DNA of 59,977 nucleotides from a virus (Duplodnaviria > Caudoviricetes), in IMG/VR virus record IMGVR_UViG_3300031949_000040, positions 1-59,977 of that record; one strand, 5' to 3'. A program made the position numbers and the translations under genes. Shown one piece after another: positions 1,404 through 38,114 of the stretch. How positions within the stretch are numbered: position 1 is the first letter of the stretch; every line of letters starts with the position of its first letter. The notes beneath the pieces were generated by a model, which saw nothing but the letters and a program-made list of their open reading frames with translations, did not search any database and had not been told where the DNA came from.

Positions 1404-1865
1404 ATGGCACAAACAACAGGAGCAGTTGCTCAAGCCTGCGGCAAGGTCTGGATCAGTACCGATGGGACGAGCTTTACCGATGTCAGCGGCGCAACCCAGA
1501 GCATTACACCGGGCGAGCAAACTAAAATCACCGGCGAAGCATATACCTTCGACGGTGAGACGCCTATTGTCAAGGGCGGCAAGCGCGAACCGATGGAGTC
1601 GGAAGTCGTCATTATTTATACCGAAACAGACGCCGAAGTGTATCAGGTTACACGAGCCATCTTTGAGGCAACGGGTTGCGGCGCGGCGTTTTACATTCGC
1701 TATAGCCCACGCGGGGGCAATGCCGATGATGAGCAGTTGACCAGCGGCGCGGGGACGCTGACATCGTTCACCTATCCACCAGCAGACGCCAGCGCCGGTG
1801 GGCCAATCCTGGGCGGCTTCACTGTGCGGCATCCTGGATTTACTACCACAATCATTGCGTCATAA
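1404..1865 (+). CDS. Major tail (tube) protein
   Basis: 153 aa, Thr/Gly-rich, GGAGG RBS; directly upstream of the frameshifted chaperone pair. Confidence 0.75.
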   Translation: MAQTTGAVAQACGKVWISTDGTSFTDVSGATQSITPGEQTKITGEAYTFDGETPIVKGGKREPMESEVVIIYTETDAEVYQVTRAIFEATGCGAAFYIRYSPRGGNADDEQLTSGAGTLTSFTYPPADASAGGPILGGFTVRHPGFTTTIIAS

Positions 1866-1873
1866 GGTGAGCT

Positions 1874-2167
1874 ATGAGCAAGAATGAATTACCTGGAAAG
1901 GGCAATGGGGCCACAGCCCCGACTGTAACCATTGAACTGGATATGGACAACTTCACCTGGGGCGATTTGGAGGATATTGAGAGCCAGTCACCGACGAAGG
2001 TCCGGCAAGCAATGCAAAAATTCGCAAGCATTGAAGGTGTAGCCAAAGAGGAAATGAGCGAATATCTGCGTCGGCTGTCCCTGCGCCAGATGAAGGAAAT
2101 CAGCGCCGAATTTATGAAGGCAATCCAAAGCCTGAGTAATCCAACGGGCGCGAACCAAAAAAACTAG
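1874..2167 (+). CDS. Tail assembly chaperone (G-like)
   Basis: Follows the major tail gene; ends CAA AAA AAC TAG with slippery A AAA AAC. Confidence 0.8.
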   Translation: MSKNELPGKGNGATAPTVTIELDMDNFTWGDLEDIESQSPTKVRQAMQKFASIEGVAKEEMSEYLRRLSLRQMKEISAEFMKAIQSLSNPTGANQKN

Positions 2168-2370
2168 AGATGCGCTTGGCCGAGTATTTAGGCGCAAAAA
2201 CAGGCCAAGCGCCTGGTGAGTACCTGAAATTTTATTTGCGAAGGTTGTACGGTTGCACTCCAAGCGAACTTGCAGAACAAAAAGGCGAGTTTTTCTTTGA
2301 GATGCTTTGCGATCTGAAGTGTGAATCCTGGGAGCGCCGCACCGCCCATTTCCGCCAATCGCTTCATTAA
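2158..2370 (+). CDS. Tail assembly chaperone T segment (-1 frameshift extension, GT-like)
   Basis: The -1 frame is open from the slippery site through the ATG at 2170 to the stop at 2370; contains YGCTPSEL. Confidence 0.75.
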   Translation, partial: KKLEMRLAEYLGAKTGQAPGEYLKFYLRRLYGCTPSELAEQKGEFFFEMLCDLKCESWERRTAHFRQSLH

Positions 2371-2373
2371 TTA

Positions 2374-2391
2374 CCGCCATTGCCCTGGCGT
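2374..2391. repeat. Left arm of an 18-bp perfect inverted repeat bounding the RAMP/array cassette
   Basis: CCGCCATTGCCCTGGCGT is the reverse complement of 4546-4563. Confidence 0.85.
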
Positions 2392-2392
2392 A

Positions 2393-2430
2393 GTTAAAAA
2401 GAGGGGCACTTGATAGTGCCCCTCTTTAAC
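2393..2430 (-). terminator. Intrinsic terminator ending array 1 (possibly bidirectional)
   Basis: Stem AAAGAGGGGCACT/AGTGCCCCTCTTT with a 4-nt loop; T-run on the minus strand. Confidence 0.8.
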
Positions 2431-2560
2431 CTTGCCTTGCCCTGCCAGACCTTACCTAACCCGACCAAACCTAACCTCACCGGACCGGACCGGACCTCAC
2501 CCCACCACACCCGACCGTACCCCACCAGACCTAACCTCACCGCACCCTTACCACAAGGTT
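2429..2560 (-). ncRNA. GGY-NN pentamer array 1 (putative VIPR-type guide RNA)
   Basis: On the minus strand: leader TAACCTTGTGGTAAGGGT, then 23 exact NN-GGY units (25 GGY in total), then the terminator; starts at the HNH stop codon. Confidence 0.85.
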
Positions 2561-2825
2561 ATTTCATAAATGCGTGTCTGTTTTTATGGCAATCGTGACA
2601 CAAGGTCTTTAAGTTGCTTGGGTGGTTCGTTCCACCTTCGCTTAGTTCAAGCACATGATGACAATGGGTTTTTTCATAGGCGAATTGAGTAAAGCAATAC
2701 TGACAAATGCCCAAGTCTCTTTGGTAGACCCACTGCTTAAGCGGTTTCCAAATGTCATCAGGGAGCCGGGAATACCATAAAGCCCTTAATCCTGGGAGTT
2801 CTGCAACAGAAAAATACTTGCTCAA
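2559..2825 (-). CDS. Small HNH endonuclease
   Basis: RD..CQYC, CHHVLELSEGGTNHPSNLKTLCHDCH. Confidence 0.9.
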   Translation of the reverse strand: MSKYFSVAELPGLRALWYSRLPDDIWKPLKQWVYQRDLGICQYCFTQFAYEKTHCHHVLELSEGGTNHPSNLKTLCHDCHKNRHAFMK

Positions 2826-3403
2826 ATCTTGCAGACCTCAAACTTAGTGACCATAAACCGGCCAAACTTGGGGCGAAAGTCTCCAATGCCAGAGGTACGA
2901 CCAGCCAGAATCAAGACCTCATTAACCACGTTGGCGGGTATCTGGTCATCCAAAACGGTAATCTCAAAGTCCAGTTTCCACCCTGGCTTAAAGCAAGGCC
3001 GAATCCGCACCACTCGCGCACGCTGAACAACGGCGGGCCTGACATCCAAGTAAAGCGGCTTATCAGCGTCAGCGTCAAGATCATCAGGGGCTTTGATACC
3101 GTGCAAGATTTCATCAGGGCTACAAAAGACATTACCCTTAAACAATTGGGCGTAGGTCTTACCTCTAGCGCCCTGGATTTTGTAGCCAGCCGATGCCTTG
3201 ACCATTGCCCCATCAAAATGGATGGCGGGTTGATAAACTTCGCCGTCGGGATTGATGTAAAGATGCTCTCTCCATTCCTGGCTGTAGTCCTTTTCACCTG
3301 TCCTTTTCTTGCCGCCTTTGCTCAAGTCGGCAAAATCAGGTAGTGGGTACTTGTGTTGCAACAGTGGGGCAACACCTGCGACCGAACAATTAACAGTGTA
3401 CAT
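2822..3403 (-). CDS. Stand-alone RAMP/Cas7-like RNA-binding protein (putative Vipr)
   Basis: N-terminal GVAPLLQH, VYQPAIHFDGAM, RIRPCF..W.LDF.I and a C-terminal Gly-rich loop AGRTSGIGDFRPKFGRF; adjacent to the GGY-NN arrays. Confidence 0.75.
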   Translation of the reverse strand: MYTVNCSVAGVAPLLQHKYPLPDFADLSKGGKKRTGEKDYSQEWREHLYINPDGEVYQPAIHFDGAMVKASAGYKIQGARGKTYAQLFKGNVFCSPDEILHGIKAPDDLDADADKPLYLDVRPAVVQRARVVRIRPCFKPGWKLDFEITVLDDQIPANVVNEVLILAGRTSGIGDFRPKFGRFMVTKFEVCKI

Positions 3404-3435
3404 AATTCTTTTCCTTTCTAATTTGAAATTGGGTT

Positions 3436-3465
3436 AAAGGGGAGCAAGGCGCTCCCCTTTTTTTA
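3436..3465. terminator. Hairpin between the accessory ORFs and the RAMP gene
   Basis: AAAGGGGAGC/GCTCCCCTTT stem; T-run on the plus strand. Confidence 0.6.
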
Positions 3466-3717
3466 TTCGCCGCTTTCTGACCGATCCCAAGCCTCACTAG
3501 CCGTGGCTTCAAAGTCGGACAGGTCGGCTTCGGGTTGGATCAGTTCTTGAAGTATCTCTTTAGTCGCCAACAGATGCGTCTTGGCCGCCACACGGTCAAC
3601 CCGACAAGCGCCAATGTAAAAGACTGAAAGCATTTGCCGGTTGTCGGCAATGTGGGTCAAAAAAGCCTCATACTCCAATTCGTCAAAGGCAAGACTAACA
3701 GTGTAGGTGGCGGCCAT
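3463..3717 (-). CDS. Hypothetical acidic protein (cassette accessory)
   Basis: 84 aa; start overlaps the upstream stop. Confidence 0.65.
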   Translation of the reverse strand: MAATYTVSLAFDELEYEAFLTHIADNRQMLSVFYIGACRVDRVAAKTHLLATKEILQELIQPEADLSDFEATASEAWDRSESGE

Positions 3718-4010
3718 TAAAGCACCTCCAGGACACCGACAAATTCACCACTGGCGTTAATGAGGATGCTTTGAGAGGCGTAGTTAAAGCCCTTGCGCGG
3801 CAAGCTAGCGGAGCGGCTTTTGCTAACTTTGATTTCTTGCCGCTTGGCAATCGGTTGGGCCATCGAGCGGAGCTTTGATTCTTGCTTGGGGGTTAGGCGC
3901 TCATAAGGGAATGAGCGCTCTTTGCCGCTGCGGGTGGTCACGAGGACGCGGCCAATCATCAATCGGACGTTGCTAATAAAACGGGTCTGTGGTAATCTAC
4001 ACTTAGCCAT
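3717..4010 (-). CDS. Hypothetical basic protein (cassette accessory)
   Basis: 97 aa; AAAGGTGAG RBS; first gene after the leftward promoter. Confidence 0.65.
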   Translation of the reverse strand: MAKCRLPQTRFISNVRLMIGRVLVTTRSGKERSFPYERLTPKQESKLRSMAQPIAKRQEIKVSKSRSASLPRKGFNYASQSILINASGEFVGVLEVL

Positions 4011-4090
4011 TGGAGAAACTCACCTTTCTTTGATGGTTAGAGCCGTTCGATTGTTTCCGCAATCGGGCGGCTCGTTTGATTTATGACTAC

Positions 4091-4119
4091 AGTATACCAT
4101 ACTTATATTTACCAGTCAA
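4091..4119 (-). promoter_or_regulatory. Sigma70-type promoter for the RAMP/HNH/array 1 operon
   Basis: TTGACT-17 bp-TATACT with an extended TG. Confidence 0.8.
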
Positions 4120-4162
4120 TACTACTAACCTTAAAATATTATAAATATGTCTTGGTATGTAC

Positions 4163-4192
4163 TTGACAAGACCGACGCACTTGGTTTATAAT
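4163..4192 (+). promoter_or_regulatory. Sigma70-type promoter for the RHH gene and array 2 (leaderless)
   Basis: TTGACA-18 bp-TATAAT; ATG 6 bp downstream at 4199. Confidence 0.8.
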
Positions 4193-4198
4193 GGGTAT

Positions 4199-4366
4199 AT
4201 GAAAACCGAAGTTAAAGACGTCCAAGAAAAATACACGTCCTATACTTTCAAAGCGCCTAGCGATTTGCTTGCCAGGGTTAAAGATAAAGCGGGCTTGATT
4301 CCAGTGAGTGCCATTATCCGGCGCTTGTTGGAAAAATGGCTTGCTGGCGAAGTAAACCTCGATTGA
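4199..4366 (+). CDS. Ribbon-helix-helix (Arc/CopG-like) regulator
   Basis: YTFKAPSDLLARVK...VSAIIRRLLEKWL. Confidence 0.75.
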   Translation: MKTEVKDVQEKYTSYTFKAPSDLLARVKDKAGLIPVSAIIRRLLEKWLAGEVNLD

Positions 4367-4467
4367 TAACCTTTGTGGTAAGGGTATGGTAAGGGTTTGG
4401 AGGGGCGTGGTTTGGCTAGGTCAGGTGTGGTTTGGAGGGGCGTGGTATGGTTCGGTATGGCAAGGAC
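4367..4467 (+). ncRNA. GGY-NN pentamer array 2 (putative VIPR-type guide RNA)
   Basis: Leader TAACCTTTGTGGTAAGGGT shared with array 1; 18 GG(T/C/A) units at 5-nt (twice 6-nt) spacing; starts at the RHH stop. Confidence 0.8.
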
Positions 4468-4504
4468 GTAAAGAGCTATCTTTCGGGGTAGCTCTTTACT
4501 TTTT
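4468..4504 (+). terminator. Intrinsic terminator ending array 2
   Basis: GTAAAGAGCTATC/GGTAGCTCTTTAC stem followed by TTTTT. Confidence 0.85.
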
Positions 4505-4545
4505 GAGCGTTCCTGATACAATTAACATAACTCAATAAGCACGAA

Positions 4546-4606
4546 ACGCCAGGGCAATGGCGGGTGAAAGTTATTTTATGACTTTCACCCCCCATTGCCC
4601 TTTTTT
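4546..4606 (+). promoter_or_regulatory. Right arm of the 18-bp inverted repeat, overlapping a terminator/attenuator-like hairpin upstream of the tape-measure gene
   Basis: AGGGCAATGGCGGGTGAAAGT pairs with ACTTTCACCCCCCATTGCCCT, followed by a T-run. Confidence 0.65.
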
Positions 4607-4655
4607 GTTCCGGGCGGGTGATGGTCACATCACCCGTTTTTTATTTGGGGCAGGT

Positions 4656-7600
4656 ATGAGCAACGTAATTGAAATTGTCATAAAGCAATCTTCCAGCGGC
4701 AACGCCATTCACGACGCCTCTAAAGCTCTTGGCGGCCTTTCCGGTGCAGCCGGCGGTGCTATCGGCAGCCTCGGTAAATTCGGCGGCGCTCTGGGCAATA
4801 TGGCGACGATTGCTGGCGGCATTGTGGCCGCCAACCTCTTCGGCAAAATCGCCGAGGGTATTTCGAGCTTTGTCACCACGGGCCTGAACGCCGTTGGCAG
4901 CAGCCAGCAGCTTGAAACATCGCTCAAGTCACTGCTCACTGCCAATAATATGTATGAGCAGTCTACCGAGACGGTGACGCAGGCTGTGACCAATCAAATA
5001 ATGTCACAGGATGAATATGGGCAAAAGCTCGACGAGCTTAACGCCAAGCTCGTGACCCAGCGAGCGACCTATCAGGAACAGCAGGAGCGCATCCGGCAGC
5101 TTACCGAGCAATACGGTGAAAATGGCCTGGTGGTCATCAAAAACAAGGCGCAACACGAACAACTGGCGATTGCCATTCGAGGGACAGAGCAGGACATAGC
5201 CAGCCTTGCTACAACCGAAACCAAGCTCAGTACCAGTACTGAAACGGCCTGGCATCAGGTAATGAGCCAAACCGAGGCAATGAAGATTGCCAAAAAGGAA
5301 ACGGCGAATTTGCTTGAGTTTGTTTCAAGACTTGCGGTTGTTTCCCCCTTCGAAACTGAAGATGTCGAGATGACCACCAAGTACGCAGTGGCTGCTGGCC
5401 TGGGTCTGGACCAGACTAAGCAGTTTGTACCAGCCTTTCTCGATTTGGCGGCTTCGGTGGGCATCACGTCCGACTCGCTGGGCTTCGCTGCCGACCAACT
5501 CTTTCAGGTTCGCAAAATCGGTAAGTTGACTGAAATAGACTTACGCCAGTTACGACGGCTGGGTATTGACCTGGGCAAGATCATCGGCGTTGAAATGGGA
5601 ATGAGCGTCTCGGAATTTAACGAAAAGGCCGGGGAAAGCCCTGAGATCTTTGATGAGCTTTTTGATGCCGTTACCCGCTTTTCGGCCAACACATTCGCCG
5701 GCACATCGAAGGAAATGGCACTGTCGGTCAAGGGGCTACAGTCTACCATCTCGGATGTGTTCGTTATCGGCTCACGCACGTTTTTGCGTCCACTCGTCGA
5801 TGCCTTTACGCCGGCCATTGCGGGCATAGTCGGCAAGCTGAGTGATTTCGTTTTGGGCGGTGAGATGAAGAGCCTGGGCGATGATATGGCTAAAACCCTG
5901 ATGGGTGGAATTGCCAAATTCCAAAAGAGCGGCGCGGGCGGCCTGTTTGCCTCGTTGGGTTTCGAGGGCGGGGCGCTGTTTTTCAAGAAACTGTCCAAGC
6001 TAATGACTATGATAACCGGCGACGCTGGCACATTGGCAGGCACTATCAAGGGGGTTTTGGGCGGGGCATTTGGATGGTTGCAATCAAATATGTTCCCTAT
6101 CCTGTCTAAGGGTATCCAATTTGTCATTGATGGCTTTCAGACTTTTCGAGGCGTATTGCTTGATGTGGGTACTGTTGTGGGGGATGTCGTTAAAAAAGTA
6201 ACGGGTGCTTTTGAGCGGTTTGGCTTTAGAGGTGCGGCGATTAGCATACTGGGCCAATTGGGATTAGAGCCAAGCCAAATTGCCACCGTACTACAGACTA
6301 TGGATCAGATGGTATCTAATGTTACTGGCGCCATTGACAAAATAACGGGTGCTTTTGATAGATTTGGGGTCAGAGGGGCAGCGGTTAGCATACTGGGGAT
6401 ACTAGGTTTAGAGCCAGAAACTATTGCCACGGTCCTGTCTATTACTGACCAAATAGTATCCTTTGTATCATCCTTTGTTTCTCAGGTTGGCGGCTTTCTT
6501 GGCTCTTTATCATTCGATGAAATTATTGGAGCATTTACGGGAATAGGAATTGCTGTGGGGGCAATTGTAGCTAGTGGCATACTCACTGCTTTAGTTGCTG
6601 GCTTAATGTCTCTACTCACACCAATTAACCTTATCATTGTCGGAGCAGCTTTACTAGGTGCAGCATGGGCCGGGAATTGGGGCGGCATTCAGGATAAATT
6701 CTTTGCGGCCTGGGCCGTTATTCAACCGGCCTTGCAAGAACTTTGGAACTGGCTAGGAATTAACATCCCTATAGCCATTCAGACCGCCAGCGACTTTTGG
6801 ACGAACACGCTCTGGCCCGCCTTGCAACAGGTAGGCGCTTTTATTGTTGGGACGGTCATCCCGGCGATGGTGGGTTTATGGCAATGGTTGTCAGTTAATG
6901 TCCCAATGGCTGTCCAGACCTTGAGTGATATTTGGACGAATACCCTACTCCCCGGCTTTCAACGGGTCTGGGAAGCCATACAAACCAACCTCTTGCCACT
7001 TTTTCAACAACTGTTTACCTGGCTTGCCAGCGAGGGGCCGGGAATAGCCCAAGTTCTAGGGGATGCCTGGACTAATATCATCTTACCCGCTCTTGCCGCC
7101 GTTGGTGATTTTCTGCTCAATACTCTTTTCCCGGCGTGGGTTGAGCTTCAAGTCTGGCTGGCTGAGAATATCCCGGTAGCCATTCAAATACTTTCGGACA
7201 TCTGGACGAACACCCTATTACCGGCGATTACAAATGCCGGAACCTTTATCACCGGCACACTCATACCAACCTTGACCAATCTATGGACGTGGCTGAGTAC
7301 AAACATCGTTTCGGCCATTCAAACCGTCTCGGATATATGGACTACGATTTTTATGCCAGCCATTACAGGTGTGTGGACTTTTATCAGCACACTCGTAATT
7401 CCGCTGTTTCAATCCTTAACGAACCTGATGGGCGCAGTGCTGGTTGTGGCCCTAACTGCCCTGGCAGGCCTGTGGCAAAATGTTTTATTACCGGCCATTG
7501 AGGTTGTCTCAAATTTTATCGGCGCAACTCTTACCGTTGCGCTTAACGCACTGATTGCCTTGGTTGCCCAAAGACTCGGACCGACGATCAGGGTTTTTGC

Positions 7601-8984: not shown

Positions 8985-11534
8985 ATGTGGAAAAGAATAC
9001 CTGTCATCCTGTTACTTTGGCTACTCTACCTTCCAGGCACTTTGTCCGCAATCCCCGTCACGGCCCAAGAGCCAAGCTTCAAAGTTTACCTTCCGTTAAT
9101 CTATTCAATCGACGATCCTTGTAGTGAGCCGATAATGTCAGACTGGAAAATTGTTGTACCCGAAAGCACCCTAAATCGCTGTCTCAACCCTTCCGCCGAA
9201 ACAACGGGGAATTTTGCGGCATTGGCTGGGACTACGGTTACACGGGTCACGAGTTTTCAGAATTATGGATTGAATAGCTATCGAGTGGAAACCAATGCCG
9301 ATAACGAGGGGGAAACATTCGACCTTTCGGCTTTAGCTAACGCCATTCACTATGTCACCGTGCGGGTGACGGGCACATTGCCCGCCTCGTGGGATTGGTC
9401 ACTCGATAATGCCACGTACACAAGCCCCACCTTACTAGAGGCCATTGATGGCACCTGGTCACTCTACGGTCTACAAGTTCCGGCGGCCCAAGCTAACGGC
9501 TCGGTATTGCTATACATTCGCCAGAACGGCTCCGGCTCCGGCGATTTCTACCTTGACGGTATCCAGGTAGAGGAAAAGAGCTATTACACAACCTACTGCG
9601 ACGGCACGCAGCCGGGCTGTGAGTGGAACGGGCCGGAACACGCCTCGACCAGCCAGCGCAGCGCCAGCAGCCGGGCGGGCGGTAGAGTGCAGGATTTACA
9701 GGATGATTATTACCTCAACATCGGCGGCATGATTGGCACGGGCGCATCACCGCAAACTCTGGGGCTGGATAGCTACGCCCTTTTACCGGGGGGCGAACTC
9801 AATAATATCAAAGTGGGTAGTCGGGTGTTCACCTTGACCGGCGTCATCACCGGTACCAGCCAAAGCGATTTTCACAGCAAAAAGCAGACGCTGCTTAGTG
9901 CTTTGATTGGTGGCTTGCAGCCGGTGCGGTTGCGCTACAACGGCGCTACCGTTCACAAGGAGATAGCCGCACATTATGAGGGTGGATTAGAGGGTGAGCT
10001 ATCCGCTTCGGATCCGTGCGCGTGGGAGCGAGTGGCCGTGCGCTTCCTTGCACCAAATCCCTACTGGTCAGAGATAGGCGAGAGCGCGGCGGCTTTGGAT
10101 ACGAATGATAGCGCCACGTTCACAGTAGTGGCGGCCAGGCTCAGAAGCACGGGGCAGTGGTCGGCGCTGGGGCCACCTAGTGCAAGTGGGACGTATACGG
10201 CGGTTAATGCCCTGGCCGAGGATGCAACTTATATCTACATCGGCGGTAATTTCCTTAACTTCGATAATATTGCGGCGGCTGATAGGATTGTTAGATACAA
10301 CAAGCAAACCGGCGTTTACTCAGCTATGGGAACGGGCACGAACGGGATTGTTCATGCGCTTGCCGTTGGGCCAGATGGCTCAGTGTACGCCGGTGGGTTT
10401 TTTACAGCAGCCGGGGGGGTAGCCAATACCGCTTATATTGCCAGGTGGGACGGTAGCGCCTGGAACGCACTAGGTACGGGGATGGATTTCACAGTTAACA
10501 ATCTTATCTTTGGCTTAGATGGCACACTCTATGCCGGAGGCGACTTCACTTTGGCCGGGGGGGTAGCCAATACCGTAAGGATTGCGGCCTGGAGCGGCAC
10601 AGCCTGGTCCGCGTTAAGCACTGGGGCGAATGGGATTGTTCGGGCTTTTGCCGTCGGGTTAGACGGCACGCTTTACGCAGCCGGGGCATTTACGACAATC
10701 GGCGGTGTGTCTGCCAACCGCATAGCCTCATGGAATGGGACGGCTTTCACCGCCCTGTCTAGTGGCTCAAGCGTTTCTATATTCGCTCTTGCTATCGACC
10801 CAGCCGGGCTACTGTACGTGGGTGGTTCATTTACGACAATTGGCAGCGTAGCGGCCAATCGTGTCGCATCCTGGAATGGTAGCACGTTTAACGCTTTGGG
10901 AGACGGGGCAAATACTGGCGTTGTTTCCGATATAGTTATTGGAGCGGATGGTACGCTCTACGCTGGGGGTACCTTTACAACAGCCGGGGGTATCACTTTA
11001 GCCGATAGGGTAGCACGTTGGAACGGTTATGCCTGGGCACATTTAGACATTGATTTACCAGGAAGTCCCGACATAACTGCTATCCTTGCCAGCAAATACG
11101 TTGACCCAGTAGTCGAGCAACAGTATTCACTATATCTCGGCTTTGACACCACCGGCGCCGGCACATTCGCCGGAAAGACCACCGTCGTCAATGACGGTAC
11201 TGCTCCCGCTTTCCCCAAAGTCATCTATGAGCGCAGCGGCGGCACGACCGCCATAATTGAGACGCTTAAAAATGAGACAGCGGGGTTGGAACTGCTATTC
11301 AATTATTCGCTTCTGAGCGGCGAACGATTGACGATTGACCTGACGCCAACCCAAAAGAGCATTGTCAGCAGCTTCTTTGGACAAAGACAGGATGCGATTT
11401 TGCCTAACAGTGATTTTGGCGAATGGTCATTGGCGCGGGGCAGTAGTGATGTGACTTCGTTTGTGGGGACAAGCGGTAGTCCGACGGTGACGGCCTATTT
11501 GTTGTGGAAAGATAACTACACCAGCCACGATTAA
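8985..11534 (+). CDS. Distal tail/baseplate protein with carbohydrate-binding-like N-terminus and beta-propeller insertion
   Basis: Follows the tape measure; FLAPNPYW Dit-like motif; repeated LYAGGxFTxAGG..IAxWxG blades; alternative start at 9135. Confidence 0.7.
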   Translation: MWKRIPVILLLWLLYLPGTLSAIPVTAQEPSFKVYLPLIYSIDDPCSEPIMSDWKIVVPESTLNRCLNPSAETTGNFAALAGTTVTRVTSFQNYGLNSYRVETNADNEGETFDLSALANAIHYVTVRVTGTLPASWDWSLDNATYTSPTLLEAIDGTWSLYGLQVPAAQANGSVLLYIRQNGSGSGDFYLDGIQVEEKSYYTTYCDGTQPGCEWNGPEHASTSQRSASSRAGGRVQDLQDDYYLNIGGMIGTGASPQTLGLDSYALLPGGELNNIKVGSRVFTLTGVITGTSQSDFHSKKQTLLSALIGGLQPVRLRYNGATVHKEIAAHYEGGLEGELSASDPCAWERVAVRFLAPNPYWSEIGESAAALDTNDSATFTVVAARLRSTGQWSALGPPSASGTYTAVNALAEDATYIYIGGNFLNFDNIAAADRIVRYNKQTGVYSAMGTGTNGIVHALAVGPDGSVYAGGFFTAAGGVANTAYIARWDGSAWNALGTGMDFTVNNLIFGLDGTLYAGGDFTLAGGVANTVRIAAWSGTAWSALSTGANGIVRAFAVGLDGTLYAAGAFTTIGGVSANRIASWNGTAFTALSSGSSVSIFALAIDPAGLLYVGGSFTTIGSVAANRVASWNGSTFNALGDGANTGVVSDIVIGADGTLYAGGTFTTAGGITLADRVARWNGYAWAHLDIDLPGSPDITAILASKYVDPVVEQQYSLYLGFDTTGAGTFAGKTTVVNDGTAPAFPKVIYERSGGTTAIIETLKNETAGLELLFNYSLLSGERLTIDLTPTQKSIVSSFFGQRQDAILPNSDFGEWSLARGSSDVTSFVGTSGSPTVTAYLLWKDNYTSHD

Positions 11535-11537
11535 GCT

Positions 11538-12731
11538 ATGTCCAAGAAGATTGCCCTATTCACCACATTTTTTGAGGCCGACAGCGGCTATTCCCTGATC
11601 ACCGTAGCTGAAACCCAAATCAGGATGCTGCTAGATCACGGCTATGAGCCAATTGTCCTGGTAGATGAGCGTTTCAAAAGCGACAAGGCGCTGTGGCAGC
11701 CGACTACCATAGATGTACGGCCGGTCATTCCTCCTCTTGGCGCGCCAGCCAATTCAATCCTGATAGCCCTGCACGAACACCTCGCCAACGTAGACGTGTG
11801 CATCACTCACGACATCGTTTTGTTGAATGATTACAAGGCACACGACCTGGCTATGAGGGAATACGCCAAATCGAGGGACAATCTGCTATGGTTGCACTGG
11901 CTTCATTCCTGCCCCAGCGGGCAGCGCGAAACACCACCCGGCTATCTCATCTATCCGAACGCCAGCGATAAGCCGCGAGTATGCCAGGTGTACGGCCTGT
12001 CCGGGCAGGAGCACCGGGTTGTACCTTGCCGGGCGGCGCACTCGATAGACCCGCTCAGCGTGTGGAACTATGACGCACTGACCCGCAGCCTGATAGGTAA
12101 ATTCAATTTGCTCGATGCGGAGGTGAGTGCGGTTTACCCAGTACGATTGGACCGCGGGAAACAGGTAGAGAAGGTCATTCGTCTATTGGCTGGGGGCAAG
12201 CGGGCGGGCTATGCGGTCAAGCTGCTGGTTATTGATTGGCAATCTACCGGGGCGCATTTCCAGAAGTACATTGACGAATTGATTGAACTGGCCTGGACGT
12301 TGGGAGTGGGTAACGATGTGGCCTTTACCAGCCGGTTGGATGATAGATGTAGTCAGGGTGTGCCACGGCACGTGGTTACTGAGCTGATGGACCTTAGTTC
12401 AATTTATATACATCCAAGCCGGGTTGAGACATACAGCTTGGTTGTGCACGAGGCGCTCTTGAGGGGTAAGTTGGTCTGTCTCAATCACGATTTCCCGGCT
12501 TTTCGGGAATTGTTTGGAGAGGCAGGCATCTACTTCGATTTCGGCTCAGATAGATTTGAGCGCACCTATGAGCCTGATATTCAATCATTTTTCGATGACG
12601 AAGCCCATAGATTGATTGCTGAATTGCGGCAAAACCGGGCGCTGATGGCTCAGACGAAGGCGCGGCGGGAGTGGGGGCCGGAGGTAATGTGGCGAGAATT
12701 TGAGCAACTATTTCACTTGAAACCTTGCTAA
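11538..12731 (+). CDS. Glycosyltransferase, GT-B (GT4-like)
   Basis: RLDRGK and YIHPSRVETYSLVVHEA motifs. Confidence 0.85.
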   Translation: MSKKIALFTTFFEADSGYSLITVAETQIRMLLDHGYEPIVLVDERFKSDKALWQPTTIDVRPVIPPLGAPANSILIALHEHLANVDVCITHDIVLLNDYKAHDLAMREYAKSRDNLLWLHWLHSCPSGQRETPPGYLIYPNASDKPRVCQVYGLSGQEHRVVPCRAAHSIDPLSVWNYDALTRSLIGKFNLLDAEVSAVYPVRLDRGKQVEKVIRLLAGGKRAGYAVKLLVIDWQSTGAHFQKYIDELIELAWTLGVGNDVAFTSRLDDRCSQGVPRHVVTELMDLSSIYIHPSRVETYSLVVHEALLRGKLVCLNHDFPAFRELFGEAGIYFDFGSDRFERTYEPDIQSFFDDEAHRLIAELRQNRALMAQTKARREWGPEVMWREFEQLFHLKPC

Positions 12732-12756
12732 TAAAAAAGCCCCGGTTAGGGGGCTT
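12732..12756 (-). terminator. Terminator between convergent genes
   Basis: AAAAAAGCCCC-GGTTAG-GGGGCTT. Confidence 0.65.
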
Positions 12757-12760
12757 GAAA

Positions 12761-13048
12761 CTACTCTGATTTAGGTCTGCCAGGATGCGGGCCAGGGCGC
12801 GGCCCGCCTCGTTTTACCATCTCGCCATGCCGCGCCCGGCGCAAAGCCTTGGCAATATTGCGCTTGGCGGTTTCGCGGTGGCAGCCGGCTTGCTCGACTA
12901 CGGCGGTATACATTTTTTGTAATTGCTGCCATCTCTCATCTGGCGTGGTCATCAGGCTATCAAACCAGACGCACCCGCCTGCGGCCTCCAAAACGGAGGC
13001 CGCAGTATTGAATATTTGTTCAGAGCGCTCTTTGGTGTTATTTGACAT
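12761..13048 (-). CDS. Hypothetical protein (moron)
   Basis: C-terminal RGGPRPGPHPGRPK; start chosen at MSNNTK. Confidence 0.6.
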   Translation of the reverse strand: MSNNTKERSEQIFNTAASVLEAAGGCVWFDSLMTTPDERWQQLQKMYTAVVEQAGCHRETAKRNIAKALRRARHGEMVKRGGPRPGPHPGRPKSE

Positions 13049-13052
13049 AGGA

Positions 13053-13283
13053 TTATTTCCAGGGTTCATCACCCCAAGGATTGCGGTTCAGGTACTTTTC
13101 GGCTTCAGTCTGAGTATTGAAGGGTAGGCCAATTGATTTAATACCGGCCCAGGTGAATCTGGCAAACTCCAGGCCCTGATGAATTTGACCATTTTTGTCA
13201 TTCATATAGGCGTAAAATTTACCGGCAATTTCTGCGACCTCACGGCCCATTGCGCCTTCGTAAACTATCTTTTCGTTAGACAT
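13053..13283 (-). CDS. Hypothetical protein (moron)
   Basis: 76 aa; tightly spaced in a leftward operon. Confidence 0.65.
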   Translation of the reverse strand: MSNEKIVYEGAMGREVAEIAGKFYAYMNDKNGQIHQGLEFARFTWAGIKSIGLPFNTQTEAEKYLNRNPWGDEPWK

Positions 13284-13284
13284 G

Positions 13285-13536
13285 TTAACCCTTTAGCAAA
13301 CCCTTTCTCATTCCAACTCTGCGGCTTGTGTCAAGGTCGTTGGCGAATTGATTAAAAATAAATTCCGGGCGGGCCATTTTTCGGGTGTTCATTTCGTTGG
13401 TATGTTCGGCCAGTTTTTCAGCTATGATTTCTCGGTAGGTTTTACCGTCACTGCGGGCTGAATCAATCGGGAATTGCTCTGATAAATCGGTCGCCATTTG
13501 GGTCATTTTTTCAATCAGTTCAGTTTTATTAGACAT
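13285..13536 (-). CDS. Hypothetical protein (moron)
   Basis: 83 aa; AAAGGG RBS after a consensus promoter. Confidence 0.65.
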   Translation of the reverse strand: MSNKTELIEKMTQMATDLSEQFPIDSARSDGKTYREIIAEKLAEHTNEMNTRKMARPEFIFNQFANDLDTSRRVGMRKGLLKG

Positions 13537-13580
13537 TTTTTAACCCTTTCGTTAATTGAGTAACTTGAATTTGTATCTAT

Positions 13581-13609
13581 ATTATATATCAAACAGTTTG
13601 AATTGTCAA
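13581..13609 (-). promoter_or_regulatory. Consensus sigma70 promoter for the three-gene moron
   Basis: TTGACA-17 bp-TATAAT. Confidence 0.85.
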
Positions 13610-13662
13610 TACCGTTCTTTACATAATTCAGACAAGTCACCAAAGTTTTAAGGTTCAATAGC

Positions 13663-14757
13663 GTGTTAATTAAGGCAATCATCTCCACTTTCGACAACCT
13701 GCCCATGCTCAAGCAGCAGCTAACCACCCTCAGAAATGACCCTCTCATCTCTGAAATCATTGTAGTCGAAAATGACTGCGAGGACGGCACGGACGAATGG
13801 CTTAGAACCCAAACCGGCCTAACCGTTGTCAACGTCCCCCAAAACCGAGGCGCAAGCATAGCCCGTAACGCTGGCCTGGATGCGGCTGGTAAATTCGACT
13901 ATGCGTTGATGCTCGACGGCGGCATAGGCGTTTTGCAGGGTGGCACTCAGAAAATGCTTGACTATATGGAACGCCGGCGCGACGAAGTGCCTGGCGAAGT
14001 GGCCCAACGAGGCCAAAGGTATTGTGACGTGCTGGGGCTAGAGATTGCCGATATGGTCACTGACCCGGAGAAAGCGTGGCGGCGCTGGCCCGGTGAAATC
14101 AAAGACAGTGACACATATCGAAACACCCGACTGTCTCACACGGCCTATTGCCTCGCCCGGTGGCGAGCCTTCGACGGTATCAGGTTTTGCACAGAGGGGC
14201 CATTTGGTGAGGCAGGGTATGCTGTCGAGGACGATCAGCTTGCATATATCTGGCACGACCTGAGCATTGTCGTTCACGTTGTCACCAACATTCACCCCTA
14301 CCGGCGCATTAACGGTTCGTTTGGCCGCCTGTTTCGAGAGACAGGTATCTGGCCTAACGGCTACGGCTCCGTCTACGAAAAGCGACTTTGCTTTCTACAG
14401 CAAAACTACGCCAAGCATCAGCCCGGCGTTCAGTGGGGCGAAGCGCCGCCGGAACGAACGGTCATCATTGACGTGGCAGACCTGGAAACCACGATCGAGC
14501 TCATTAAATTCTGGCACGACGAATTTAGGAAAGATAGATTTGAAGCGCCTTACTCATACGCCTGGAAACCATACCGCATCGAAGTGCGCTGCCCTGCTGA
14601 GCGGATTGATTTTTTGGAATGGGCAGAGCCACGGCGACTGAGGCAGCATCATGGGGATACGATTATTGAGAGCGGGGAAATTGTCCGACGCAACTCGAGT
14701 AACGAGGCGCTATGGACGGGGGACTTTATTTTGGAGATAACGATTGGCCTGGAGTGA
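13663..14757 (+). CDS. Glycosyltransferase, GT-A (GT2-like)
   Basis: IIVVENDCEDGT, NRGASIARNAG, LMLDGG. Confidence 0.85.
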   Translation: MLIKAIISTFDNLPMLKQQLTTLRNDPLISEIIVVENDCEDGTDEWLRTQTGLTVVNVPQNRGASIARNAGLDAAGKFDYALMLDGGIGVLQGGTQKMLDYMERRRDEVPGEVAQRGQRYCDVLGLEIADMVTDPEKAWRRWPGEIKDSDTYRNTRLSHTAYCLARWRAFDGIRFCTEGPFGEAGYAVEDDQLAYIWHDLSIVVHVVTNIHPYRRINGSFGRLFRETGIWPNGYGSVYEKRLCFLQQNYAKHQPGVQWGEAPPERTVIIDVADLETTIELIKFWHDEFRKDRFEAPYSYAWKPYRIEVRCPAERIDFLEWAEPRRLRQHHGDTIIESGEIVRRNSSNEALWTGDFILEITIGLE

Positions 14758-36199: not shown

Positions 36200-36329
36200 T
36201 GAGCACCTGGGAAGCAAAGCTAATAGCAGACATTGAGCGCTACGAAAAAGAATTTGGCCGCTCATTACCCGATACCAGTTTTTACAAGCTGGCGGTTAAG
36301 GCGATTAAGGCGAAGTACGAGGCTAAAAA

Positions 36330-36881
36330 GTGAAACGCGCTCTACTGCTTCACGGCGCCAAGCAAACGCCCGTCACGGTCGAAGAGACCAGCGACGGCGG
36401 CTTGATTGTTCATTTGAATGGCAAGGATTTGTTCAGGTTGGAGCCGGTGGCAGTGCCAATGGGCCGCGACATTACCGCGCAGAGCCTGGATGATCAGCCG
36501 CCATACAAGCGACTTGAACTATTGATCGAGCGGTTCTCCAATAGCAAAGAGGATATGTCAGATCTGGTAATGGACTTGATGGATGATTACAAGCGGCTGA
36601 CGGGGCGACGTTACGAGGCCGTGGCGCAATCGGAGAGCCAGCTTCAGCAAGACCTGATCATACTCAAGCCACACATGGCCAAGCTCATTGCTGGCGGCGA
36701 ACTGGCTAGAGGCTGGCAGAGCCGTGTTGCTGAGTATCTCGATTTACCTAACACCGGCGGCGCTTTTCGGAAGCGAATTCTTGCCGCTGGCCATACCTTA
36801 CGTGAATTCTACTTTTCTACAGCCGAAAAAGTCTCTACTACCGAGGTAGAAACCAAAAATAGGCGAGTTTCGACGGGGTAG
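36330..36881 (+). CDS. Hypothetical protein
   Basis: 183 aa ORF in the operon. Confidence 0.55.
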   Translation: MKRALLLHGAKQTPVTVEETSDGGLIVHLNGKDLFRLEPVAVPMGRDITAQSLDDQPPYKRLELLIERFSNSKEDMSDLVMDLMDDYKRLTGRRYEAVAQSESQLQQDLIILKPHMAKLIAGGELARGWQSRVAEYLDLPNTGGAFRKRILAAGHTLREFYFSTAEKVSTTEVETKNRRVSTG

Positions 36882-37177
36882 AAAAGTAGAAAACTCAAAT
36901 TAGCCCAAAAATGAAAGCCCGATTGATGCAACCAACATCAATCGGGCCACAAACCAAACCACGAAAGGAAAAGTAAACCGATGAACATTTTAATCAAGTT
37001 CGTTCAAAAAAACAAATGGAACGTTCAAGGCGAACAGAGGCCAATGCTACAAAAGCGGCAAGTACCCAAGGTAAATCGCGCTCAGGCAATATTATTCAAA
37101 GCCCTGGATCGCTCACTCTTGCACGGCTACCATTCCGTAAAATGGGACAGGGTGGGGCTATCCCACAGGGGGACTTC

Positions 37178-37402
37178 GTGAAAACAACAATCTTTGGTTA
37201 CACTTTGGAAATTTACATTACCCGCGCCTATTTAGCAGAAACGCTGCTGAGGTTATCCAGGGGCCAACCCGGCGAGTCTCATAAGATCAAGCTCATTAAA
37301 GCCTTGAGGGAATTTAGCAATTATGAGATTGGCCTAAGTGAAGCCAAGAGCAAGGTAGAGGCAATGTTTGACTTCTCTACCGGAAAGCCGGTGATAAAAT
37401 AA
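37178..37402 (+). CDS. Ribosomal protein L7/L12 C-terminal-domain-like protein
   Basis: KIKLIKALRE...IGLSEAKSKVE; GGGGA RBS before the GTG. Confidence 0.6.
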   Translation: MKTTIFGYTLEIYITRAYLAETLLRLSRGQPGESHKIKLIKALREFSNYEIGLSEAKSKVEAMFDFSTGKPVIK

Positions 37403-37743
37403 TGGCCGATCCGAGATTTAAGCACGGAATGATCCGCTCAAACTGGCACAAGCCTGAAACTAAACTCGACAGTCCCATCCTCTACGGCTGGCAGCCCGTT
37501 GACGTAAACGACGAAGGTTTCACCGTTTTCGCGCTGGGTGATGCTCTGATGAGAGCCACAATGCCACGCGATAACCTCAAGGATCAATGGATTGTTTTCC
37601 TTAACGGGAAAGTGCTCGCTGGCTACACCGGCGATTTATCCCTCATTACTGAGGATGTACGCAAGGCGATTGATGAAATTCCATTCGATGGCCGTCCGTG
37701 CCTACAGCGCGACGGGAGCCTGATTGGAGAGGCGGGCCTGTGA
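37402..37743 (+). CDS. Hypothetical protein
   Basis: 113 aa; start overlaps the upstream stop. Confidence 0.55.
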   Translation: MADPRFKHGMIRSNWHKPETKLDSPILYGWQPVDVNDEGFTVFALGDALMRATMPRDNLKDQWIVFLNGKVLAGYTGDLSLITEDVRKAIDEIPFDGRPCLQRDGSLIGEAGL

Positions 37744-37805
37744 GCATCGGGGCGTATTTTTTACCAAACCATACTATTCCAAAAGAAGCGTTCGGAGGTG
37801 ACAAA

Positions 37806-38114
37806 ATGAGTGACCAAACTAACGGCAAGCGGCGCATTAACGTTGAGGAATTGGTAAATTTTATGGCAGATACAAGCCGGCGTTTGATTTCATTATGTGA
37901 GCAATACGAACTTAAACCTTGCTGGATACATCAACAACTCGAAGCGCCAAGCCTATTGGCGTTTATCCAGTCTCTGGACCCGACACTTTTGAAAAATCTT
38001 TATATCTCAACGAAAGAACCCAGTGGTCAACCCTGGTTTATCCTGTTCGCCAGATTTGGCTTACCCGGTAGTGACGAAGAACTTATCACCCTATCTGCTA
38101 AAGTAAAGGAGTAA
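37806..38114 (+). CDS. Hypothetical protein
   Basis: GGAGGTG RBS before MSDQTN. Confidence 0.55.
   Translation: MSDQTNGKRRINVEELVNFMADTSRRLISLCEQYELKPCWIHQQLEAPSLLAFIQSLDPTLLKNLYISTKEPSGQPWFILFARFGLPGSDEELITLSAKVKE

What the first reader, a model, noticed from the sequence alone, without database searches (positions are those of the whole stretch)
2179..2543. Array 1 decodes, as a gapped code, to a homolog of the adjacent tail-chaperone gene
Seen: in RNA order the variable dinucleotides of array 1 are GC GA TA CT GG AC CG GT GG GA CC CC CC GA TA TT CG TA AA CT AG (AA AA). Read as NNx codons, with every third target base skipped, they spell A-[ED]-Y-L-G-T-R-V-G-[ED]-P-P-P-[ED]-Y-[LF]-R-Y-[KN]-L-[RS]. 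The phage's own T segment at 2179-2241 reads AEYLGAKTGQAPGEYLKFYLR. That is 12 of 21 residues matching without gaps (allowing for the two-way codon ambiguities), plus conservative K/R, F/Y and Q/E pairs, while only 25 of 42 specified bases match. Inference: the RNA is a non-contiguous guide whose skipped base falls on the codon wobble position. Its target would be the T gene of a related competing phage, 200-350 bp from the cassette's own insertion point.
Basis: partly seen in the sequence, partly recalled or inferred. Interest (0 to 1): 0.97.

Follow-up and report, generated by a model that had tools for sequence, protein, structure and literature searches.

The report
Phage VIPR guide aimed at sibling tail gene
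The repeat array is a guide RNA of the recently published VIPR system, which reads two DNA bases out of every three; it spells the version of the neighbouring tail-chaperone gene carried by sibling phages, so this is a good specimen of a known kind that also hints at RNA-guided homing.

Summary
Array 1 (window 2544-2430, minus strand) is 23 GGY-NN pentamers. Read as NNx, its first 21 dinucleotides match the T codons at 2179-2241 at 25 of 42 bases and 12 of 21 residues.

On the window alone this is weak: 18% of 1000 shuffled guides score as high somewhere. Sibling phages settle it. The codon-homologous T site is the single best hit in three other records (28, 25 and 23 of 42). The summed score is 101, against 43.9 +/- 9.2 for shuffles.

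One contig from another metagenome run shows a T allele matching 17 of 20 guide bases over the 10 visible codons (self 10 of 20).

The system is already in print as VIPR (bioRxiv 10.64898/2026.04.26.720920): a Cas7-like Vipr protein, GGY/NN guide RNAs and a one-base skip at the wobble position. Here the 193-aa protein matches the solved SUSP1 Vipr, and an HNH nuclease gene follows it.

No full-length target reaching 80% was found.

A new point: in 3 of 6 related cassettes with an array after the HNH gene, that last guide spells the gene next to the cassette. This suggests RNA-guided rival cutting or homing, untested. Earlier notes of this scan report the same pattern on other DNA.

The parts
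1874..2167 (+). Tail assembly chaperone G frame (97 aa). It ends just after the slippery run CAAAAAAAC.
   Evidence: ORF list and the sequence. Syntenic with the G403 homolog. No Pfam or PHROG family was found. The name rests on its position between the major-tail-like gene and the tape measure gene, and on the -1 frame overlap.
2170..2370 (+). T segment of the G-T chaperone, in the -1 frame relative to G.
   Evidence: ORF list. Homologs with the conserved LYGCTPSE motif occur in L003, L004, L006, L011 and L014 and, without that motif, in G403.
2179..2241 (+). The phage's own, mismatched copy of the site spelled by array 1: 25 of 42 guide bases, in frame, with the skipped base at codon position 3.
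   Evidence: All 4 shared Leu/Arg codons use the other codon family than the guide.
2374..2391 (.). Left copy of a perfect 18-bp inverted repeat that brackets the cassette.
   Evidence: it is the exact reverse complement of 4546-4563.
2395..2429 (-). Hairpin plus U run that ends the array 1 transcript (intrinsic-terminator-like).
   Evidence: Fold and the sequence. The simple consensus scan did not list it.
2430..2556 (-). Array 1, the terminal vrRNA. Leader at 2556-2545, then 23 YNNGG units at 2544-2430. Units 1-21 (2544-2440) spell the T allele.
2559..2825 (-). HNH nuclease gene (88 aa), the accessory (vap-like) gene. Its start overlaps the vipr stop.
   Evidence: Pfam HNH E = 1.9e-10. The two CxxC pairs and the HH...N...H residues are present. 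Homologs sit next to vipr in L022-L032.
2822..3403 (-). vipr: a 193-aa Cas7-like RAMP protein.
   Evidence: phrog_4652, E = 4.7e-20. PDB 36pp_D 'SUSP1 Vipr protein', E = 8e-15 with the profile and 1.4e-8 with the single sequence. AF2 model pLDDT 82. Foldseek top hits are Cmr4, Csm3 and type VII Cas7.
3463..4010 (-). Two small genes of unknown function (97 aa at 4010-3717, 84 aa at 3717-3463) at the head of the leftward operon.
   Evidence: ORF list. No family in Pfam, PHROGs, NCBIfam or PADLOC.
4091..4192 (.). Back-to-back promoter-like sites: minus strand 4119-4091 (10 of 12 matches), plus strand 4163-4192 (12 of 12).
   Evidence: These are consensus matches only.
4157..4366 (+). Small ribbon-helix-helix-like gene. 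The likely start is the ATG at 4199, just after the -10 box.
   Evidence: Pfam RHH_1 E = 0.026, below the cut-off. Sequence and promoter.
4372..4499 (+). Array 2, a second vrRNA (leader, then about 14-17 units), followed by a terminator-like hairpin at 4468-4499. No target was found.
4546..4563 (.). Right copy of the 18-bp inverted repeat.
11238..11303 (+). Site in the 849-aa tail gene (8985-11534) spelled by the terminal guide of the sibling phage G403. It matches 34 of 44 bases, and 25 of 28 over the first 14 units.
   Evidence: G403 carries its cassette directly after its own copy of this gene.

Best explanation
The cassette at 2374-4563 is a phage-borne VIPR system with an HNH partner gene.

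Proposed mechanism:
1. Divergent promoters drive a leftward transcript (two small genes, vipr, HNH, array 1) and a rightward one (RHH, array 2).
2. Array 1 is a long vrRNA. By the published mechanism, Vipr protomers coat it, hide each GGY and present each NN.
3. The NN pairs then read double-stranded DNA two bases in, one base out.
4. Array 1's NNs spell codon positions 1-2 of the first 21 codons of the T-specific part of the tail chaperone, as sibling phages carry it. The phage's own copy is not spelled.
5. The complex would therefore bind the T gene of a co-infecting or resident sibling phage.
6. The own copy escapes through 17 mismatches in 42, including synonymous switches at all four shared Leu/Arg codons.

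What is shown in silico: family membership, the code, the identity of the target gene, and that siblings fit better than self.

What is inferred: that the HNH protein is recruited to cut the bound DNA, and that the result is exclusion of the rival, copying of the cassette into it, or both.
For: Family membership:
- The Vipr profile hits PDB 36pp_D 'SUSP1 Vipr protein' at E = 8e-15 over residues 2-186. The single sequence gives 1.4e-8, with a shared C-terminal GxGDxRPxFGRF loop.
- The AF2 model (pLDDT 82.3) gives Cas7-type top hits: Cmr4, Csm3 and type VII Cas7.
- GGY-NN arrays lie on the vipr strand in 33 of 38 homolog loci by a strict parser, and in 4 of the other 5 by a tolerant one.
- An HNH homolog sits next to vipr in 11 of 38 loci.

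Published rule: the 1-nt skip, with the skip at the wobble position, targets on rival phages, and no self hit of 80% or more.

Code and target:
- Scores were 25/42 at 2179 (unique best of 119,832 positions) and 28/42 in G403 (0 of 1000 shuffles reach it).
- Further scores were 25/42 in L006 and 23/42 in L003. All are rank 1, in frame and at the homologous codons.
- The sum is 101, against 43.9 +/- 9.2 for shuffles.
- In run X2, one contig fits the window up to 2187 and then reads 10 codons (L G T R I G Q A P P). These match guide units 4-13 at 17 of 20 bases, against 10 of 20 for self and 12 of 20 for G403 (table 7, hand count).

Self-avoidance: at Leu/Arg codons the self alleles match the guide's codon family in 0 of 6 cases, non-self alleles in 8 of 10 (Fisher P = 0.007).

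Transcription units: promoter-like and terminator-like sites and the fold.
Against: - No allele with an 80% or better NN match over the whole guide was found. The best full-length match is 67% (G403).
- IMG/VR exact seeds gave nothing: 0 loci with a 10-unit seed, and 16 loci with 8-unit seeds that all extend only to 22-25/42.
- 0 of 401 sampled genomes of the class of a T-bearing Chloroflexota MAG matched units 1-13 with up to 3 mismatches.
- The X2 allele rests on one contig, and only 30 of its 62 loose letters are shown.
- The guide has 21-23 units, whereas the characterised type II vrRNAs have 9-16. The last units may be a semi-conserved 3' part and not guide.
- On the window alone the match is reached by 17-18% of shuffles.
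- The more distant T alleles (L004, L011, L014) score only 16-17 of 42.
- The alleles in the Leu/Arg count are related, so the Fisher test overstates independence.
- No expression, binding or cleavage data exist for this locus.
Confidence: 0.8

Rival explanations
1. The RNP and target are the same, but the outcome is only transcriptional silencing of the rival's tail-chaperone and tape-measure operon, as shown for type II VIPR. The HNH protein does not cut at the guided site, and the cassette does not home.
For: Every experimentally shown VIPR activity is repression by binding (and the abstracts seen). The T gene sits in an essential late operon, so a roadblock there would hurt a rival. In 3 of 6 loci with a post-HNH array, no neighbour match was seen.
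Against: The HNH catalytic and zinc residues are intact, and the gene is conserved next to vipr in the whole L022-L032 clade. Silencing alone does not explain why the terminal guide spells the gene immediately beside the cassette at three different insertion sites. The discovery preprint itself suggests target destruction for the nuclease-bearing types.
Confidence: 0.25
2. The match is numerology. The NN positions are unconstrained spacers in a protein-binding repeat RNA, and 25 of 42 is a chance hit picked out by eye.
For: 17-18% of shuffled guides reach 25 of 42 somewhere in the window. Array 2 has no significant hit anywhere tested.
Against: The same codon-aligned site is the top hit in three further T alleles. 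0 of 1000 shuffles reach the G403 score, and the four-site sum of 101 exceeds the shuffle maximum of 75. The same behaviour is seen for the terminal guides of G403/L032 (31 and 34 of 44, against a shuffle maximum of 27) and of L024 (27 of 38). The code itself is experimentally established in print.
Confidence: 0.02
3. Array 1 acts in cis on the phage's own T gene, using the partial match to tune chaperone or tape-measure expression or read-through into the cassette.
For: The best hit in the whole window is the phage's own adjacent gene, 133-195 bp from the cassette. An 18-bp inverted repeat brackets the cassette.
Against: The self match is 60%, below the 80% at which natural targets are called. 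Disturbing NN pairing abolished silencing in the published assays. Sibling alleles fit better than self. The self Leu/Arg codons look recoded away from the guide.
Confidence: 0.05
4. Array 1 is a decoy or anti-VIPR RNA. It would redirect a rival's Vipr protein, as satellite-borne solo vrRNAs do, and would not be a guide for the phage's own Vipr.
For: Redirecting solo vrRNAs are described in bioRxiv 10.64898/2026.10.15.759431 (abstract and section 8).
Against: Array 1 is co-transcribed with an intact vipr and HNH and shares its 12-nt leader with array 2 and with the arrays of the sibling cassette. Its decoded sequence is a phage structural gene, not a multi-copy host repeat.
Confidence: 0.05

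Closest known systems
VIPR systems (Vipr + vrRNA + vap), type II of Escherichia phage SUSP1 and a Pseudomonas fulva prophage (bioRxiv 10.64898/2026.04.26.720920 and 10.64898/2026.04.26.720927)
   Same: Both have a lone Cas7-like RAMP of about 20 kDa (E = 8e-15 to the solved SUSP1 Vipr) and GGY/NN pentamer RNAs on the same strand. Both use a one-base skip aligned with the codon wobble, target coding sequences of rival phages, and have no self match of 80% or more.
   Different: About 21-23 units per guide here, against 9-16. A conserved 12-nt 5' leader and a plain terminator hairpin replace the conserved pseudoknot tail. The partner gene is an HNH nuclease, not a DNA-binding Vap1. The host is probably Chloroflexota, judged from where T homologs were found. 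The target is the gene beside the cassette.
Nuclease-bearing VIPR types (III-V) of the same preprint
   Same: Vipr plus a predicted nuclease partner. An HNH domain is named in the legend of Fig. S21. The vrRNAs hit viral sequences in IMG/VR.
   Different: The preprint describes types III and V as enriched in cellular defence islands and acting for the host. This cassette sits among the tail genes of a virus record and is aimed at a sibling's allele of its own neighbour gene. I could not assign the type, because the classification figures and data are supplements, which are closed.
Free-standing HNH/GIY-YIG homing endonucleases of T-even phages (Seg and Mob genes, 'intronless homing').
   Same: A small nuclease cassette lies between conserved genes and is present in some siblings and absent in others. 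The target lies in the neighbouring gene, a few hundred bp from the insertion point. The own allele is protected by sequence differences.
   Different: Here recognition would be by a guide RNA on a Cas7-like filament, not by the nuclease's own DNA-binding domain. The 88-aa HNH protein has little room for one. Cleavage and gene conversion have not been shown.
IscB / OMEGA RNA-guided HNH nucleases
   Same: The HNH domain's best NCBIfam match is the HNH part of the IscB model (E = 2.4e-10, 40 bits, against a cut-off of 175). Both couple an HNH to an RNA guide on a mobile element.
   Different: There is no RuvC, no PLMP or bridge helix and no omega RNA. The guide is contiguous in IscB and gapped here. 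The match is at domain level only and far below the family cut-off.

Membership tests
VIPR | Vipr protein: a small single-RRM RAMP with a glycine-rich loop, related to Cas7 | tested here: met
   The profile of 30 homologs hits PDB 36pp_D 'SUSP1 Vipr protein' at E = 8e-15 over 2-186. The single sequence gives 1.4e-8, with the aligned GxGDxRPxFGRF loop. AF2 pLDDT 82.3. Foldseek top hits are Cmr4, Csm3 and type VII Cas7, E down to 4.8e-8.
VIPR | vrRNA: tandem GGY/NN (YNNGG) pentamers beside vipr, constant GGY and variable NN | tested here: met
   Array 1 has 23 of 23 units with Y..GG and array 2 has 14-17 units. These are the only two such arrays in the window. Arrays occur in 37 of 38 homolog loci.
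VIPR | Target read with a one-base skip, the skip falling on codon position 3 | tested here: met
   In silico only. Period 3 gives the standout scores (28 in G403, 25 in L006), against 19-25 for periods 2, 4 and 5. All significant hits are in frame with the wobble position skipped.
VIPR | Natural target with an NN match of 80% or more elsewhere, and none on the own contig | tested here: inconclusive
   The maximum on the own contig is 60%, so there is no self-targeting. The best full-length external match is 67% (G403). One X2 contig gives 85% over the 10 units that are visible. Exact-seed and mismatch searches found nothing better.
VIPR | Structured 3' tail after the repeats (a pseudoknot in the SUSP1 clade) | tested here: inconclusive
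   Here the repeats run straight into a terminator-type hairpin. The tails of terminal guides in relatives are hairpins with no shared sequence. The published tail is described for one clade only.
VIPR | Accessory vap gene adjacent to vipr | tested here: met
   HNH gene overlapping the vipr stop. It is conserved in 11 of 38 loci, namely all those with 56% or more Vipr identity.
VIPR | vrRNA expressed and bound by Vipr; sequence-specific dsDNA binding | not testable with these tools
   This needs small-RNA sequencing, pull-down and binding assays.
Homing endonuclease cassette (intronless homing) | Cassette present or absent at the same locus among sibling genomes | tested here: met
   The window has it at the T/tape-measure junction and not after the 849-aa tail gene. 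G403 is the reverse. L006 has T followed directly by the tape-measure gene.
Homing endonuclease cassette (intronless homing) | Recognition site in the cassette-free allele close to the insertion point, with the own allele differing | tested here: met
   In silico only.
- The window guide gives 28/42 on G403's T against 25/42 on self.
- The G403 guide gives 34/44 on the window's tail gene against 31/44 on self.
- The L024 guide gives 27/38 on the neighbour gene.
- The sites end 115-229 bp before the neighbour's stop codon.
Sources. This was significant in 3 of 6 loci with a post-HNH array.
Homing endonuclease cassette (intronless homing) | Cleavage of the recipient allele and copying of the cassette by repair | not testable with these tools
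   This needs cleavage and co-infection or plasmid-donor assays.
CRISPR-Cas class 1 | CRISPR repeat-spacer array and further cas genes (Cas5/6/8, Cas1-2 and so on) | tested here: not met
   The arrays have a 5-nt period with no repeats of 20-40 nt. The other cassette genes have no Cas family match in Pfam, NCBIfam or PADLOC.

The most novel reading that the evidence does not exclude
HNH-linked VIPR cassettes are RNA-guided homing elements of phages.

The last guide of each cassette, the one after the HNH gene, would be programmed for the cassette-free allele of the gene immediately beside the insertion site. The Vipr filament would bring the domain-sized HNH to that allele in a co-infecting sibling. 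Repair from the cassette-bearing genome would then copy the cassette together with the linked, recoded immune allele.

This would be a free-standing homing endonuclease whose specificity is written in RNA and can be re-aimed at each new insertion site.
Probability: 0.4. Interest if true: 0.85.

Novelty: new member of a known kind. Interest (0 to 1): 0.55.

Why it matters
That reading holds up here, so the locus is a clean natural example outside the enterobacterial and Pseudomonas systems studied so far.

The part not in print is the geometry. I searched for 'homing' with paper reading in two of the three VIPR preprints. The search listing shows 0 for the third. All three gave 0 occurrences.

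In two sibling phages the cassette sits at different sites, and each terminal guide spells the sibling's allele of its own neighbour gene. The own allele carries synonymous escapes.

If the HNH cuts where the guide binds, this would be an RNA-programmed homing endonuclease. It would also give a direct test of how nuclease-bearing VIPR types act. Finally, it predicts a concrete target duplex that can be synthesised and assayed.

Tried and rejected
- Window-only statistics: not significant. The case rests on relatives.
- T protein search in the 5.8-billion-protein set: only the window's own 66-aa ORF came back. T frames are evidently rarely called as genes.
- T alignment scans: viral contigs gave 3 loci, metagenome contigs 5 and genome contigs 5. 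I dropped L008, L009, L010, L012, L013 and L015 as non-T proteins that merely share the LYGCTPS motif. They look like regulator C-termini and score 14-18 of 42.
- T alignment against 401 sampled genomes of one class: 6 matches. I did not score those loci (L016-L021).
- Exact NNx seeds in IMG/VR: 0 loci for the 10-unit seed. The 8-unit seeds gave 7, 5 and 4 loci, all chance (22-25 of 42 full length).
- Units 1-13 with up to 3 mismatches: 0 of 401 genomes.
- Own record with the full pattern and up to 3 mismatches: 0.
- Array 2: no hit above shuffles in the window, G403, L006, L003 or L060.
- All-against-all search of short guides (8-10 units) at 80%: background level, with similar counts for periods 2-5.
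- Terminal guides of L022, L027 and L029: no significant neighbour match.
- Rfam: only sub-threshold miRNA-like matches on hairpins, nothing at gathering score.
- My first idea, a TRAP-like or CsrA-like protein-binding repeat RNA or a G-quadruplex, was dropped once the Vipr match and the homolog statistics came in.
- Sequencing runs: no RNA holder listed.
- Run X1 may be the source of the window, so it is not independent.
- In X2, several bins within the cassette have no cover or almost none (2304-2437, 2572-2705 and 3912-4581 at 0). Across the cassette, depth never exceeds 4. No contig joins across the cassette. I therefore make no claim that the X2 relative lacks the cassette.
- Supplements of the VIPR preprints are closed. 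The type assignment (data S4, Figs S16-S22) and the lists of type III/V targets could bear on whether this clade and its neighbour-gene targeting are already tabulated.
Full report
WHAT IS THERE

The window is an IMG/VR virus record of 59,977 bases, estimated 81% complete. Between the tail-chaperone genes (G frame 1874-2167, T frame 2170-2370) and the tape-measure gene lies a 2.2-kb cassette. Perfect 18-bp inverted repeats bracket it at 2374-2391 and 4546-4563.

Promoter-like sites sit back to back at 4119-4091 (minus strand) and 4163-4192 (plus strand).

The leftward unit contains, in order:
- two small genes with no known family;
- a 193-aa gene at 3403-2822;
- an 88-aa HNH gene at 2825-2559 (Pfam E = 1.9e-10; catalytic and zinc residues intact);
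- array 1, three bases after the HNH stop: a 12-nt leader, 23 YNNGG units at 2544-2430, then a hairpin with a U run.

The rightward unit is a small RHH-like gene, then array 2 at 4372-4465 and a terminator-like hairpin. These are the only two period-5 GG arrays in the window.

THE OBSERVATION

Read as NNx, they match the T codons at 2179-2241 at 25 of 42 bases and 12 of 21 residues.

This site is the unique best of 119,832 positions in the window. However, 51 of 300 and 18% of 1000 shuffled guides do as well somewhere in the window. On the window alone, then, it could be chance. In the 1.2 kb beside the array the local P is 0.012.

WHAT SETTLES IT

I collected T homologs from three collections and from one sibling record. 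At the codon-homologous position the guide is the top hit in each of the closer relatives:

| Record | Score | Rank |
|---|---|---|
| G403, a syntenic sibling phage | 28/42 | best in 60 kb; 0 of 1000 shuffles reach it anywhere; next best in the 3.2-kb L062 locus 22 |
| L006, a metagenome contig where T runs straight into the tape-measure gene | 25/42 | best of 2,592 positions |
| L003 | 23/42 | best of 12,214 positions |

Summed over the four sites the score is 101, against 43.9 +/- 9.2 for shuffles with a maximum of 75.

More distant T alleles (L004, L011, L014) score 16-17, in the top 1-3% of their loci. Skip lengths of 0, 2 and 3 give only 19-25. The alleles match the guide at different units, so the guide looks like a further member of this protein family and not a copy of any one allele.

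A BETTER ALLELE

I laid contigs of two public runs on 1500-5500. Run X2 has contigs from a relative that differs at 32 of 428 bases in the G gene.

One of its contigs fits the window up to 2187 and then goes on unlike it. The 30 letters shown translate to L G T R I G Q A P P. These match guide units 4-13 at 17 of 20 bases. The window's own allele gives 10 of 20 there, and G403 gives 12 of 20 (hand count).

The relative therefore diverges from the window exactly where the guide's site begins, and it diverges towards the guide. This is a single contig, and only 30 of its 62 loose letters are shown.

WHAT IT IS

The 193-aa protein belongs to a large family: 319 relatives at E <= 0.001 among 484 candidates, none with a Pfam domain or a name. 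It also matches phrog_4652.

A profile of the family hits the solved 'SUSP1 Vipr protein', 36pp_D, at E = 8e-15. The model's fold matches Cas7-type proteins.

A literature search found bioRxiv 10.64898/2026.04.26.720920. I read its Results, Discussion and three Methods sections. It describes:
- VIPR systems made of Vipr, vrRNAs of alternating GGY/NN, and a vap accessory gene;
- recognition of double-stranded DNA with one base skipped per unit;
- the skip falling mostly on the codon wobble position;
- natural targets on rival phages and satellites, called at 80% NN match or more, with none on the source contig;
- seven types, some with nuclease partners.

I read only the abstract and outline of the structure preprint, 10.64898/2026.04.26.720927. 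I read the abstract and sections 8 and 17 of the competition preprint, 10.64898/2026.10.15.759431.

37 of 38 homolog loci in IMG/VR carry such arrays on the vipr strand. The 11 loci closest to the window's Vipr (56% identity or more) all have the HNH gene next to vipr.

THE EXTRA PATTERN

G403 shares tail and head genes with the window at roughly 65-90% protein identity. Its VIPR-HNH cassette, however, sits elsewhere, directly after its copy of the window's 849-aa tail gene (8985-11534). It has no cassette between T and the tape-measure gene.

G403's terminal guide (22 units, after the HNH gene) matches its own copy of that tail gene at 31 of 44. It matches the window's copy, at 11238-11303, at 34 of 44, or 25 of 28 over the first 14 units. 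The shuffle maximum is 27.

In L024, a different phage context, the guide after the HNH gene matches the convergent neighbour gene at 27 of 38.

In all three cases the match has the same geometry:
- it is on the sense strand and in frame;
- its end lies 115-229 bp before the neighbour's stop codon;
- the neighbour gene faces the cassette.

Three other loci with a post-HNH array (L022, L027, L029) show nothing significant. L025 has no such array, but its two guides match its own genes in frame at 20 of 26 and 21 of 30.

At Leu and Arg codons, where a synonymous change can break the NN match, the self alleles differ from the guide in 6 of 6 cases. Non-self alleles differ in only 2 of 10 (P = 0.007; the alleles are related, so this is soft evidence).

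HOW IT MOST LIKELY WORKS

Shown by sequence: a VIPR guide whose NN code spells a sibling-type T allele, with a self allele too mismatched to be bound under the published threshold.

Inferred: Vipr coats array 1 RNA and binds that allele in a rival phage. The small HNH protein, with little room for a DNA-binding domain of its own, is brought in and cuts. The rival is then excluded, or it repairs from the cassette-bearing genome and so acquires the cassette plus the linked immune allele.

The word 'homing' does not occur in the three VIPR preprints, so this last reading is not in print there. Earlier notes of this scan report the same pattern on other genomes. Those are unchecked AI notes and I do not count them as evidence.

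WHAT IS MISSING

- A full-length target at 80% or more was not found.
- The guide's true 3' boundary is unclear. The last units are A-rich in several terminal guides.
- Array 2 has no target.
- The VIPR type cannot be assigned without the closed supplements.

VERDICT

This is a new member of a known, very recently described kind. It also offers a testable and unpublished suggestion that the HNH-linked form is an RNA-guided homing or rival-cutting element.

Noticed in passing
window 11238-11303 (+), in the 849-aa tail gene 8985-11534: The window phage is itself a predicted near-target of its sibling's VIPR. G403's terminal guide matches here at 34 of 44 bases (25 of 28 over units 1-14), better than on G403's own copy (31 of 44).
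   Followed up: yes
window 11555-16568 versus G403 36312-37979: By tblastx, the sibling G403 has little matching the 5-kb stretch after the 849-aa tail gene. The only hit, to window 12803-13058, lies elsewhere in G403 (about 29.9-30.1 kb). G403 carries its 1.7-kb VIPR-HNH cassette at that place instead.
   Followed up: partly
window 2374-2391 and 4546-4563: A perfect 18-bp inverted repeat brackets the cassette. The right copy is part of a hairpin just upstream of the tape-measure gene. Whether these are element ends or an RNA stem joining T to the tape-measure gene is open.
   Followed up: partly
window 2188-2217, compared with a contig of run X2: There is a local divergence hot spot. The X2 relative is about 92% identical in the G gene but differs at 11 of 30 bases (hand count) exactly where the guide's site begins, including a synonymous Leu switch. 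This is what an escape-and-pursuit history would leave.
   Followed up: partly
window 4372-4465 (+): Array 2 repeats the leader-like word twice and has an internal duplication of three units (TT GG GT at two places). No target was found in the window, G403 or the T/tape-measure relatives.
   Followed up: yes
window 2559-2825 (-): The HNH domain's best NCBIfam match is the HNH part of the RNA-guided nuclease IscB model (E = 2.4e-10, far below the family cut-off). PADLOC matches are generic HNH domains (DpdF, ZorE).
   Followed up: no
L025 7068-7106 (-) and about 2443-2487 (-): In a high-GC phage whose cassette has no array after the HNH gene, both guides match the phage's own genes in frame. 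One site (20 of 26) ends about 30 bp before the stop of a 228-aa gene beyond one extra small ORF. The other (21 of 30) is 2.9 kb upstream, in a 758-aa gene.
   Followed up: partly
L027 3315-3400 guide, hit at 2758 (-): The best self hit of this post-HNH guide (20 of 30, z about 3) falls at the 3' end of the locus's own vipr gene. It may be a vipr-targeting guide of the kind described for SUSP1-family phages.
   Followed up: no
window 4157-4366 (+): The listed RHH ORF starts upstream of its own promoter-like -10 box (4187-4192). The ATG at 4199 would give a nearly leaderless 55-aa protein.
   Followed up: no
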